A DNA stretch of 64,000 nt from Escherichia coli (GTDB taxonomy: Bacteria; Pseudomonadota; Gammaproteobacteria; Enterobacterales; Enterobacteriaceae), in the NCBI RefSeq assembly GCF_003018235.1, contig NZ_CP027437.1; one strand, 5' to 3'. Made by a program: the position numbers. The first letter of the stretch is position 1, and each line of letters starts with the position of its first letter. This document shows positions 18,501-21,500 of this stretch, one piece after another.

Positions 18501-21500
18501 GTGATGCGTGATCTGATAAAGCAGCATCGTTCTCCCATGGAGCTGATGACGATGCTGCGGTGACGTGCGCTTAAACGGGCTGCCCCTGATGCGACATCCG
18601 CGTCGCCAGCGGTAGCCAGCACAGCACGATCAACAATCCCATTAAGGTCATCAACAACCCCAGGCTGCCCTGACCGGTTTGCGGCAACATCGCAGAGAGC
18701 GACGCCAGCACGCCGGAACCAATGTTTTGTAGACCGCCGACCAGCGCGCCAGCCGTGCCCGCCAGGAAAGGGAACGGCTCCATCGCGCCGCTGGTCGCCA
18801 GCGGAAACAGCATCCCGGCACCGAAAAAGAACAGCGCGGCGGGAACGAGCAGCGTCCAGACATTCATCACGCCAAACCAGTCGGGGATCCACATCAGCAA
18901 GCCAGCCAGCAGGCAGCAGATAACCGACTGCCACATTAACGTTGAGAAGCGTTTATTAGGACGTCCGGCAAACCATGCCCCAAAAAATGCCGCCGGAATC
19001 GGCAGAATAAACAAAATACTGACCGTCATACTGCTCAGCCCTAACACCGCGCCCATCAGCACGCCGGAGCAGGCTTCAAAGGCGGCAATCCCGGCCAGAC
19101 CGCCAATCAGCATCAGCAAATAACAGTTAAAACCGCTGTTACCGAAAAGCGTTTTATAACTGGTAAGCAGGCGTGTGCGCGGTGCGTCGACCGGACGCGT
19201 TTCTGGCATCCAGCGGGCCATACTGAAGGTCACACCGGCACAAAGTACCAACAAAAAGAGATAACAGGCGCGCCAGTTCCACATCGTATCCAGCAGACCG
19301 CCGATTAGCGGTGCGAGCAACGGACTGACAAGAATTCCCATGTTTAACAGGCTATTAGCATGGCGCAACTGTGTCCGTTCATATAAATCACGCGGCAAAG
19401 TACGCGCCATTACGCCGCCAACGCCGGTGCCCATCCCCTGCATCGCGCTGGCGGCAATCAATACTGTCAAACTGGAGGTCGTGACCGCGACCAGCGTTGC
19501 CAGCATAAAAATGGACATTCCGACGAGGATCACCGGTCGGCGACCCACACGGTCGGAAATCGGGCCATAAAACAGCTGTGAGACACCGTAAGTCAGCAGA
19601 TAAGCGCCCATTACGCTCTGCACCGCCCCTTCACGGACGTTGAGATCGCGCGCCATATCGGCAATAGCTGGAATATAAATGGTTTGCGCCATCTGACCGA
19701 CGGCCACGAGTAATACCAACATCAATAACAAATTGACGTTTCTATGCCTTTTCATTATCACGGATGCTTTTATAAAAATAATTAGAATAAGTCACTACGC
19801 ATTCCCATAAATGCGGGAGAGGAATCTATCACATTGATAAATGTTAGCCAGATATACGCCAGGAATGGGGAATTGTTTAGCGGCAGAATATGTAAACAAA
19901 AGCGGCAATAAATGTTGCCGGGAGGGATTACGTGCGAACAGTAACCCTCTCCCTGAAAGGACGAGGGGGAAACCACCGTTCCCTTTCAGAAAATGAGCTA
20001 AACATTGCACGGGACGGTCCCCTCGCCCCTCTGGGGAGAGGGCTAGGGTGAGGGGCACAGGCAGCGCAGGTGCAAACATTCTGCTGGTAGAAGAAGCCCC
20101 CAACTCCAACTCACACGCTAAATATAAAAGGGGAGCGGTTACCCGCTCCCCTTTAGTGCGACTTGAATCTGAATTACTTCAGGTATTTCAGAACAGCATC
20201 AAGCAGTTGCAGTGCTGCAACAATGAGTTTGAGGATAAGAATGGCGATATCCACCAGGCTCATACGCGTCTCCTGTGGTTCAGGAGCACTGCCAGCTGAC
20301 GTACCTTTCCGCTGCCTGTTGCCAGCTGTTGTGCACGCGGTATCTCAAGGAGAAACGTTGTGCTTGTTGACATAACACAGTGTGCTCACGCGGGGTTAAG
20401 GCGCTGACGGCACCACCCGTTTCAGCCAGGACTTAGTGCGCCGGGTAACGATGCGGCCCCCACATAACACATTGCGTACAGTGATATTATAGAAGTTTAC
20501 TGTATAAATAAACAGTAATATTTGGACAAAACGCAAACTGTGAACGATACTCAACTATGCACTAAATACGTCAAAATTCGTGCCGAAATTGCGCGTTCTG
20601 TGCGGAACACGTATACTTTCTGTGTTGACATAATACAGTGTGCTTTGCGGTTACCAGCCGCAGGCGACTGACGAAACCTCGCTCCGGCGGGGTTTTTTGT
20701 TACCTGCAATTTAGTTCAAAACGTGATCAACCCCTCAATTTTCCCTTGCTGAAAAATTTTCCATTGTCTCCCCTGTAAAGCTGTGCTTGTATAAATATTG
20801 TTAAACACAAAACCAACAAGGTCCCCAATGACTACTTCCATGCTCAACGCAAAACTACTACCAACTGCGCCATCCGCCGCAGTGGTCGTCGTGCGTGTGG
20901 TGGTGGTCGTCGGCAATGCGCCGTAGGGACTGGAACAACACACGATTCCAAAACCCCGCCGGCGCAAACCGGGCGGGGTTTTTCGTTTAAGCACCTCCCG
21001 GAAAGTCGGCCCAGAAGAAAAGGACTGGAGCATGGCAAGTTCGGGCACAACATCGACGCGTAAGCGCTTTACCGGCGCAGAATTTATCGTTCATTTCCTG
21101 GAACAGCAGGGCATTAAGATTGTGACGGGCATTCCGGGCGGTTCTATCCTGCCTGTTTACGATGCCTTAAGCCAAAGCACGCAAATCCGCCATATTCTGG
21201 CTCGCCATGAACAGGGCGCGGGGTTTATCGCTCAGGGAATGGCGCGCACCGACGGTAAACCGGCGGTCTGTATGGCCTGTAGCGGACCGGGTGCGACTAA
21301 CCTGGTGACCGCCATTGCCGATGCGCGGCTGGACTCCATCCCGCTGATTTGCATCACCGGTCAGGTTCCTGCCTCGATGATTGGCACCGACGCCTTCCAG
21401 GAAGTGGACACCTACGGCATCTCTATCCCCATCACCAAACACAACTATCTGGTCAGACATATCGAAGAACTCCCGCAGGTCATGAGCGATGCCTTCCGCA

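What the first reader, a model, noticed from the sequence alone, without database searches (positions are those of the whole stretch)
20174..20700. tisB/istR type I toxin-antitoxin locus recovered by hand: 29-aa toxin, LexA box and a 21-nt sense repeat marking the sRNA-target duplex
The ORF track misses tisB (29 aa, minus strand, 20174-20263). Upstream is a perfect LexA box (20500-20515). The 21-nt sequence GTTGACATAACACAGTGTGCT (20366-20386, inside the tisAB 5' region) recurs as GTTGACATAATACAGTGTGCT at 20624-20644, just downstream of a -10-like TATACT and ~75 nt upstream of a hairpin+T-tract. A plus-strand RNA from 20624 would be perfectly antisense (one mismatch) to the minus-strand tisAB mRNA, which is what IstR-1 does.
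Basis: partly seen in the sequence, partly recalled or inferred. Interest (0 to 1): 0.45.

Follow-up and report, generated by a model that had tools for sequence, protein, structure and literature searches.

The report
Known E. coli tisB/istR toxin-antitoxin locus

Summary
These are the 29-aa TisB ORF (20174-20263, minus), a LexA box (core 20500-20515, full 20-mer 20498-20517), and a 21-nt direct repeat (20366-20386 and 20624-20644). The repeat makes a plus-strand RNA antisense to the minus-strand tisAB mRNA.

Rfam family istR (RF01400) hits 20569-20698 at 148 bits. TisB passes two NCBIfam equivalog models. The region aligns without internal gaps at about 98-99% identity to E. coli K-12 MG1655, in the same emrD–tisB/istR–ivbL-ilvB context. 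All published promoter hexamers and the tisB Shine-Dalgarno sequence are present.

Three refinements:
- The "one mismatch" is a G·U wobble, so all 21 positions pair. K-12 has the same wobble, and in my sample it is confined to Escherichia.
- The K-12 RefSeq annotation starts IstR-1 two nt further in (20626). The LexA-controlled 140-nt IstR-2 (20559-20698) also lies here.
- The TisB N2S variant is the dominant E. coli allele.

In 18 related Escherichia, Citrobacter and Salmonella loci both repeat copies are kept, whereas the tisA reading frame is not. That favours the published RNA-pairing (ribosome-standby) mechanism over translational coupling.

Verdict: already known, correctly read, low interest.

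The parts
20120..20154 (-). tisAB intrinsic terminator: 12-bp hairpin at 20154..20127 followed by a T-rich tail
   Evidence: terminator scan. With +1 at 20479 the transcript is about 359 nt, the length published for tisAB RNA (PMC2577331).
20174..20263 (-). tisB CDS, 29-aa membrane toxin (N2S variant)
   Evidence: ORF. (NCBIfam TisB equivalogs above cut-off). (N2S is the consensus allele, about 85% of E. coli).
20269..20274 (-). tisB Shine-Dalgarno sequence AGGAGA
   Evidence: The same hexamer is listed as the tisB RBS in PMC11264685 Table 1.
20260..20373 (-). tisA ORF (37 codons), reported as untranslated. Its AUG lies inside the IstR-1 target and its stop overlaps the tisB AUG (ATGA).
   Evidence: Literature. 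The frame is not conserved outside Escherichia.
20366..20386 (-). IstR-1 binding site and ribosome standby site in the tisAB mRNA (+94..+114 if +1 = 20479). The published RNase III product +106 maps to 20374, inside the duplex.
   Evidence: Mechanism from PMC6690012 and PMC4147584.
20439..20479 (-). First 41 nt of the primary tisAB mRNA, the inhibitory 5' element that is removed to give the active +42 mRNA. In the MFE fold, nt 3-26 pair with +85..+105.
   Evidence: fold; +1 is inferred from the -10 box. Literature.
20486..20491 (-). tisAB promoter -10 box TATAAT
   Evidence: PMC11264685 Table 1.
20498..20517 (.). LexA box TACTGTATAAATAAACAGTA, between the divergent tisAB and istR-2 promoters
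   Evidence: Identical in K-12. A CTG-N10-CAG box sits at the same place in 18 related loci.
20523..20551 (+). istR-2 promoter: -35 TGGACA, 17-nt spacer, -10 GATACT
   Evidence: PMC11264685 Table 1.
20559..20698 (+). IstR-2, the 140-nt LexA-controlled long form that contains all of IstR-1
   Evidence: K-12 RefSeq feature projected through alignment A1. The Rfam istR model covers 20569-20698.
20589..20617 (+). istR-1 constitutive promoter: -35 TTGCGC, 17-nt spacer, -10 TATACT
   Evidence: PMC11264685 Table 1.
20624..20698 (+). IstR-1 antitoxin sRNA. It is 75 nt if it starts at G20624; the K-12 RefSeq annotation corresponds to 20626-20698 (73 nt).
20624..20644 (+). IstR-1 5' tail, 21 nt complementary to the tisAB mRNA (20 Watson-Crick pairs plus one G·U at nt 11)
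20673..20698 (+). Terminator shared by IstR-1 and IstR-2: hairpin plus U6

Best explanation
This is the chromosomal type I toxin-antitoxin module tisB/istR-1 of E. coli. LexA binds the box at 20498-20517 and represses the leftward tisAB promoter (-10 at 20491-20486) and the rightward istR-2 promoter. DNA damage removes LexA, and a roughly 359-nt tisAB mRNA is made. That primary transcript is not translated, because its first ~41 nt pair with the region around +85..+105 and the tisB ribosome-binding site is structured. Cutting off 41 nt gives the +42 mRNA, in which the stretch +94..+114 is open and serves as a ribosome standby site. From there 30S subunits, through protein S1, reach the tisB start about 100 nt downstream. 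IstR-1 is made all the time from its own promoter (TTGCGC/TATACT). Its 21-nt 5' tail pairs with exactly that stretch, which blocks standby. RNase III then cuts the duplex to give the inactive +106 mRNA. When tisAB mRNA outnumbers IstR-1, the 29-aa TisB peptide enters the inner membrane, collapses the proton motive force, and pushes cells into dormancy (persistence). Shown here: all sequence elements, their arrangement, the pairing, family membership and conservation. Taken from the K-12 literature and inferred for this strain: transcription, processing, standby, RNase III cleavage and toxicity.
For: Rfam istR at 148 bits. NCBIfam TisB equivalogs above cut-off. Internally gap-free alignment to K-12 at about 98-99% identity, with the repeat copies, LexA box, all promoter hexamers and the Shine-Dalgarno sequence identical. 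RefSeq IstR-1, IstR-2 and tisB features project onto the predicted coordinates. Same emrD-ysdE-tisB-istR-ivbL-ilvB context. The 21-mer repeat is unique in the window, with 0 expected by chance. Best RNA duplex is anchored at IstR-1 nt 1-22; the 21-mer alone gives -33.5 kcal/mol. With +1 placed 7 nt after the -10 box (20479), the published landmarks all fit: +106 falls inside the duplex, the standby site lies 103-123 nt upstream of the tisB AUG, and the transcript is 359 nt. The MFE fold of the +1 RNA pairs the 5' end with the target region. In 18 related Escherichia, Citrobacter and Salmonella loci both 21-mers, a LexA box and (in 17) a 29-aa TisB are kept at 248-257 nt spacing; 395 of 399 duplex positions (those 18 loci plus the window) pair, and one species changes both copies together (T to C at nt 16, L007). 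Mechanism literature: PMC6690012, PMC4147584, PMC5668327, PMC2826370, PMC11264685.
Against: There are no expression data for this strain. Predicted accessibility of the target region barely differs between the +1 and +42 RNAs (mean unpaired probability 0.38 vs 0.47), so the processing switch is not reproduced convincingly by folding alone. The cross-species sample was collected with a pattern that required one exact copy of the 21-mer, so its conservation is partly by construction. The independent substitutions are too few for a statistical covariation test.
Confidence: 0.97

Rival explanations
1. A mok/hok-like coupling model. IstR-1 acts by covering the tisA start codon, and tisB is translated only by ribosomes that have read tisA and restart at the overlapping ATGA.
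For: The 21-nt target (+94..+114) covers the tisA AUG (+107). The tisA stop overlaps the tisB start as ATGA. The tisA ORF is kept in more than 99% of E. coli that carry the locus (PMC11264685).
Against: Outside Escherichia the tisA frame is not kept. Three Citrobacter species have ACG instead of AUG. Most Citrobacter have a 34-nt shorter spacer and a 46-codon frame that runs past the tisB start. Salmonella diarizonae has a 31-codon frame that stops 16 nt before it. Meanwhile TisB, its Shine-Dalgarno sequence and the 21-mer are kept. The tisA body (20264-20365) is the second least conserved of the 13 segments compared, with 18% of columns invariant, the lowest share among the untruncated segments. 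The literature reports tisA as untranslated, with translation through standby.
Confidence: 0.02
2. The long form IstR-2, not IstR-1, is the antitoxin that matters, because it is co-induced with tisAB by LexA release.
For: IstR-2 (20559-20698) contains the whole 21-nt tail and shares the LexA box with tisAB. The Rfam model is built on the long form.
Against: In the IstR-2 fold the 21-nt region is partly enclosed in structure. The literature states that IstR-2 does not repress tisB, and that deleting istR-1 alone raises persisters 10- to 100-fold.
Confidence: 0.03
3. The 21-nt repeat is a chance or DNA-level feature (a protein-binding site or duplication scar) with no RNA-pairing role.
For: After the 21-mer the two copies share only a weak AGGCG(A)CTGACG match (local alignment, 5% of 2000 shuffles reach the observed score). 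A short scar of an old duplication is therefore conceivable.
Against: 0 expected by chance. Both copies are conserved in three genera while the flanks diverge. 10 of the 14 differences between the copies, counted per locus, put an sRNA U opposite an mRNA G, which still pairs. There is direct biochemical evidence in K-12.
Confidence: 0.01

Closest known systems
tisB/istR-1 of Escherichia coli K-12 MG1655 (b4618/b4616)
   Same: Same genes, same order and context, and the same LexA box, promoter hexamers, Shine-Dalgarno sequence, 21-nt repeat (including the C/T difference), IstR-1 body and terminator.
   Different: TisB has Ser instead of Asn at residue 2, which is the commoner natural allele. 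There are a few point differences: 20462 A vs G (mRNA +18, turning a G-C into a G·U in the 5' inhibitory helix), 20546, 20601 and 20621 in the IstR-2-specific part, and the flanks.
[quoted passage not shown]
   Same: The toxin and sRNA genes are divergent. A short direct repeat gives the complementarity to a long 5' UTR far from the RBS. The mRNA is activated by 5' processing. dinQ is also LexA-controlled.
   Different: The toxins and RNAs are unrelated in sequence. AgrB works by refolding the mRNA rather than by blocking standby.
hok/sok
   Same: Type I TA with a small membrane toxin, an antisense RNA and RNase III cleavage of the duplex.
   Different: Sok overlaps its target gene in cis and blocks a translated leader ORF (mok). 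Here the sRNA is encoded apart from its target, and the upstream ORF (tisA) is neither translated nor conserved.

Membership tests
tisB/istR-1 type I toxin-antitoxin system | 29-aa hydrophobic TisB peptide | tested here: met
   NCBIfam equivalogs NF011340 (69.9 bits, cut-off 53) and TIGR04459 (61.5 bits, cut-off 38), full length 1-29. 28 of 29 residues identical to K-12.
tisB/istR-1 type I toxin-antitoxin system | IstR RNA gene (Rfam RF01400) with a terminator shared by the long and short forms | tested here: met
   148.2 bits against a gathering score of 45, model positions 1-130 of 130, at 20569-20698 on the plus strand.
tisB/istR-1 type I toxin-antitoxin system | Divergent, non-overlapping genes, with about 21 nt of IstR-1 5'-tail complementarity to the tisAB 5' UTR roughly 100 nt upstream of the tisB RBS | tested here: met
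   21 contiguous pairs (20 Watson-Crick plus 1 G·U) between 20624-20644 and the mRNA at 20386-20366, which lies 103-123 nt upstream of the tisB AUG.
tisB/istR-1 type I toxin-antitoxin system | LexA operator controlling tisAB (and istR-2) but not istR-1 | tested here: met
   TACTGTATAAATAAACAGTA lies next to the tisAB -10 box and 5 nt before the istR-2 -35 box. The istR-1 promoter lies 70 nt or more away. This shows sequence and position only; LexA binding itself cannot be tested here.
tisB/istR-1 type I toxin-antitoxin system | Chromosomal position between emrD and ivbL-ilvBN | tested here: met
tisB/istR-1 type I toxin-antitoxin system | mRNA processing (+1 to +42), standby-dependent translation, RNase III cleavage to +106, TisB toxicity and membrane depolarisation | not testable with these tools
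   Known only from K-12 experiments. The landmark positions fit the sequence here.

The most novel reading that the evidence does not exclude
The G·U wobble at IstR-1 nt 11 was seen in all the Escherichia loci sampled, while the Citrobacter and Salmonella loci have G-C at that position. It lies at mRNA +104, two nt from the RNase III cut that produces +106. It could be a derived tuning of duplex cleavage or antitoxin strength in Escherichia rather than a neutral change.
Probability: 0.1. Interest if true: 0.25.

Novelty: already known. Interest (0 to 1): 0.05.

Why it matters
tisB/istR-1 is the textbook case of SOS-induced persister formation and of ribosome standby control by an sRNA. Finding it in an E. 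coli window adds nothing new. The value here is as a check: a tool-free reader recovered a 29-aa gene and an sRNA-target pair correctly from raw sequence. The small additions are of interest only to specialists. They are that the 'mismatch' is a wobble confined to the Escherichia loci sampled, that tisA is not conserved as a reading frame across genera, and that there are decayed alleles of the locus.

Tried and rejected
1. I looked for homology between the two repeat copies beyond the 21-mer, which would indicate an old longer duplication. Only AGGCG(A)CTGACG aligns, and 5% of shuffles reach the same score, so it is not significant. The -78 kcal/mol full-length duplex from RNAduplex ignores intramolecular structure, so I do not treat it as evidence.

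2. I tried to reproduce the +1 to +42 accessibility switch by folding. The MFE fold of +1 does pair the 5' end with the target, but ensemble unpaired probabilities (0.38 vs 0.47) are not decisive.

3. I tried to read Vogel et al. 2004 and Darfeuille et al. 2007 to settle the IstR-1 5' end and the tisAB +1. Neither paper is held. The +1 at 20479 is therefore inferred from the -10 box and supported by the 359-nt length.

4. Covariation statistics on the sRNA/target duplex. There are too few independent substitutions (about 5-6 events), and the sample is biased by the search pattern. I report it descriptively only.

5. I did not use a large protein-database search, structure prediction or a metagenome scan. 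The identity was already settled by Rfam, NCBIfam and the K-12 alignment.

Full report
**Observation.** The region was read on both strands and ORFs of 20 aa or more were listed.
- A 29-aa ORF, MSLVDIAILILKLIVAALQLLDAVLKYLK, lies at 20174-20263 on the minus strand.
- CTGTATAAATAAACAG lies at 20500-20515. The full box TACTGTATAAATAAACAGTA at 20498-20517 is the only zero-mismatch TACTG-N10-CAGTA in the 64 kb.
- GTTGACATAACACAGTGTGCT (20366-20386) and GTTGACATAATACAGTGTGCT (20624-20644) are the only two matches in the window even with three mismatches allowed. None is expected in 100 dinucleotide shuffles.
- TATACT lies at 20612-20617. A hairpin plus T6 ends at 20698, so a transcript from 20624 would be 75 nt.

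**Identity.**
- A scan of the whole window against Rfam gives istR (RF01400) at 20569-20698 on the plus strand. The score is 148.2 bits against a gathering score of 45, over the full model.
- The peptide passes both NCBIfam TisB equivalogs above their curated cut-offs.
- A megablast of 20100-20760 against 5,426 complete E. coli genomes finds the locus in 4,360 of them, with tisB annotated under the match. The best hit is 99.8% identical, in strain K_EC180.
- The flanking genes are emrD (18571-19761, minus) and ivbL-ilvB (from 20829, plus), as in K-12 MG1655.
- The alignment to K-12 has no internal gaps and about a dozen point differences.
- Projected through that alignment, the K-12 RefSeq features fall as follows: 'small regulatory RNA IstR-1' on 20626-20698, 'small RNA IstR-2' on 20559-20698, and tisB on 20174-20263.

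**Anatomy.** Every element listed for MG1655 in PMC11264685 Table 1 is present:
- tisAB -10 TATAAT (20491-20486, minus strand)
- tisB Shine-Dalgarno AGGAGA (20274-20269, minus strand)
- istR-2 -35 TGGACA (20523-20528) and -10 GATACT (20546-20551)
- istR-1 -35 TTGCGC (20589-20594) and -10 TATACT (20612-20617)

The LexA box abuts the tisAB promoter and lies 5 nt before the istR-2 -35 box. The istR-1 promoter lies well clear of it.

I placed +1 of tisAB 7 nt after the -10 box, at 20479. This is an inference. It gives +42 = 20438, +106 = 20374, the IstR-1 target at +94..+114, the tisA AUG at +107 and the tisB AUG at +217. The transcript would end at the strong terminator (20154-20127 plus tail) at about 359 nt. 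All of this agrees with published numbers:
- a 359-nt tisAB RNA (PMC2577331)
- removal of the first 41 nt to give the active mRNA
- a standby site about 100 nt upstream of the RBS
- RNase III cleavage within the duplex to give +106 (PMC6690012; PMC5668327)

**Pairing.** The two 21-mers lie on the same DNA strand and the two genes are transcribed divergently, so the IstR-1 5' tail is antisense to the mRNA. The single C/T difference puts IstR-1 U11 opposite a G. That is a wobble pair, so all 21 positions pair, at -33.5 kcal/mol. RNAduplex anchors the best interaction at IstR-1 nt 1-22. K-12 has exactly the same C/T difference, so it is a feature of the canonical system and not of this strain. 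On its own, IstR-1 folds with a free 5' stretch of 12 nt, an internal stem-loop and the terminator.

**Related loci.** One exact-pattern scan of 100,044 species genomes returned 21 stretches from Escherichia, Citrobacter and Salmonella. In 18 loci that held both copies:
- The target copy and the sRNA copy lie 248-257 nt apart, with a CTG-N10-CAG box between them.
- A 29-aa TisB lies downstream of the target copy, except in one locus cut off by its contig end.
- Counting those 18 loci together with the window (19 sets), 385 of 399 duplex positions are Watson-Crick, 10 are G·U and 4 are mismatches.
- The nt-11 wobble is seen in the Escherichia loci only. Citrobacter and Salmonella have G-C there.
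- One Citrobacter (L007) carries T to C at nt 16 in both copies.

Two caveats apply. The pattern required one exact copy, and the independent changes are few. The result is therefore supportive but not statistical.

**Test between mechanisms.** The sequence alone would also fit a mok/hok-like model, because the target covers the tisA AUG and the tisA stop overlaps the tisB start (ATGA). Across genera, however, the tisA frame is not kept:
- Three Citrobacter species have ACG instead of AUG. This is the same substitution that gives their single A·C mismatch in the duplex.
- Most Citrobacter have a 34-nt shorter spacer and a 46-codon frame that runs past the tisB start.
- Salmonella diarizonae has a 31-codon frame that ends 16 nt before the tisB start.

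The tisA body is the second least conserved of the 13 segments compared, with 18% of columns invariant, the lowest share among the untruncated segments. The target 21-mer and the adjacent +42..+93 segment are 85-90% invariant. This favours the published standby mechanism, in which the conserved element is an RNA site. It agrees with reports that tisA is not translated.

**Mechanism.** The steps below come from the K-12 literature and are inferred for this strain.
1. LexA represses tisAB and istR-2.
2. DNA damage induces the inert +1 mRNA.
3. 5' processing to +42 exposes the standby site, and 30S subunits reach the structured tisB RBS through protein S1.
4. Constitutive IstR-1 pairs across the standby site, and RNase III cuts the duplex to give the inert +106 mRNA.
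5. Excess mRNA yields TisB, which depolarises the inner membrane and promotes persistence.

- The 'mismatch' is a G·U wobble.
- The IstR-1 5' end is 20624 (G, 7 nt after the -10 box, giving the 75 nt that I recall as the published length) or 20626 (K-12 RefSeq, 73 nt). I could not read the original mapping papers.
- IstR-2 is also encoded here.
- TisB Ser2 is the dominant natural allele, and Asn2 is the K-12 variant.

**Verdict.** This is an already known system, correctly identified, with nothing unusual in this copy. Interest is low.

Noticed in passing
window 19924-20700, compared with L024 (E. coli HH97) 2312-2512 and L026 (SYNB1934, which I recall as a Nissle 1917 derivative) 1204-1303: 1,066 of 5,426 complete E. 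coli genomes gave no megablast match to the locus. In HH97, window 19924 to about 20700 is replaced by about 200 nt. That stretch still holds two collinear relics of tisAB: 77% identity to the tisB 3' end and 90% identity to the tisA body. It has no IstR target, LexA box or istR. About 494 genomes, including SYNB1934, carry a shorter and more decayed version of about 100 nt. The locus therefore appears to have decayed in place in one lineage rather than never having been present.
   Followed up: partly
L025 (E. coli EC-16-35) 3412-4700, equivalent to window ~20511: An ISL3-family ISKox3 element is inserted where the match to the window ends, at about 20511. That is inside the LexA box, so it separates tisAB from istR.
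   Followed up: no
window 20462: The window and strain K_EC180 have A where K-12 has G. In the tisAB mRNA this is +18 (U instead of C), inside the 5' inhibitory helix, and it turns a predicted G-C pair into G·U.
   Followed up: no
window 20434-20453 (minus strand, mRNA +27..+46): The 20-nt sequence GCATCGTTACCCGGCGCACT is present here. PMC2577331 reports it as repeated elsewhere in the E. coli genome and as able to pair with uxaA mRNA.
   Followed up: no
window 19837-19911 (+): This small ORF corresponds to the annotated 24-aa protein YsdE of K-12 (b4798) and K_EC180, between emrD and tisB.
   Followed up: no
window ~19925-20075: A G+C-rich repeat-like element (ccctcgcccctctggggagagggctagggtgaggggc and its neighbours) lies between ysdE and the tisAB terminator. 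PMC2577331 mentions a single REP sequence in this interval. It is missing, together with tisB/istR, in HH97.
   Followed up: no
window 20829-20926 (+) and 20950-20985: The ivbL leader peptide (MTTSMLNAKLLPTAPSAAVVVVRVVVVVGNAP) lies here, followed by a hairpin plus T-run. This is the ilvBN attenuator.
   Followed up: no
window 5680-5752 (+): Rfam ROSE_2 RNA thermometer, 100.4 bits, full length.
   Followed up: no
window 59777-59867 (-): Selenocysteine tRNA gene, Rfam tRNA-Sec, 83.8 bits.
   Followed up: no
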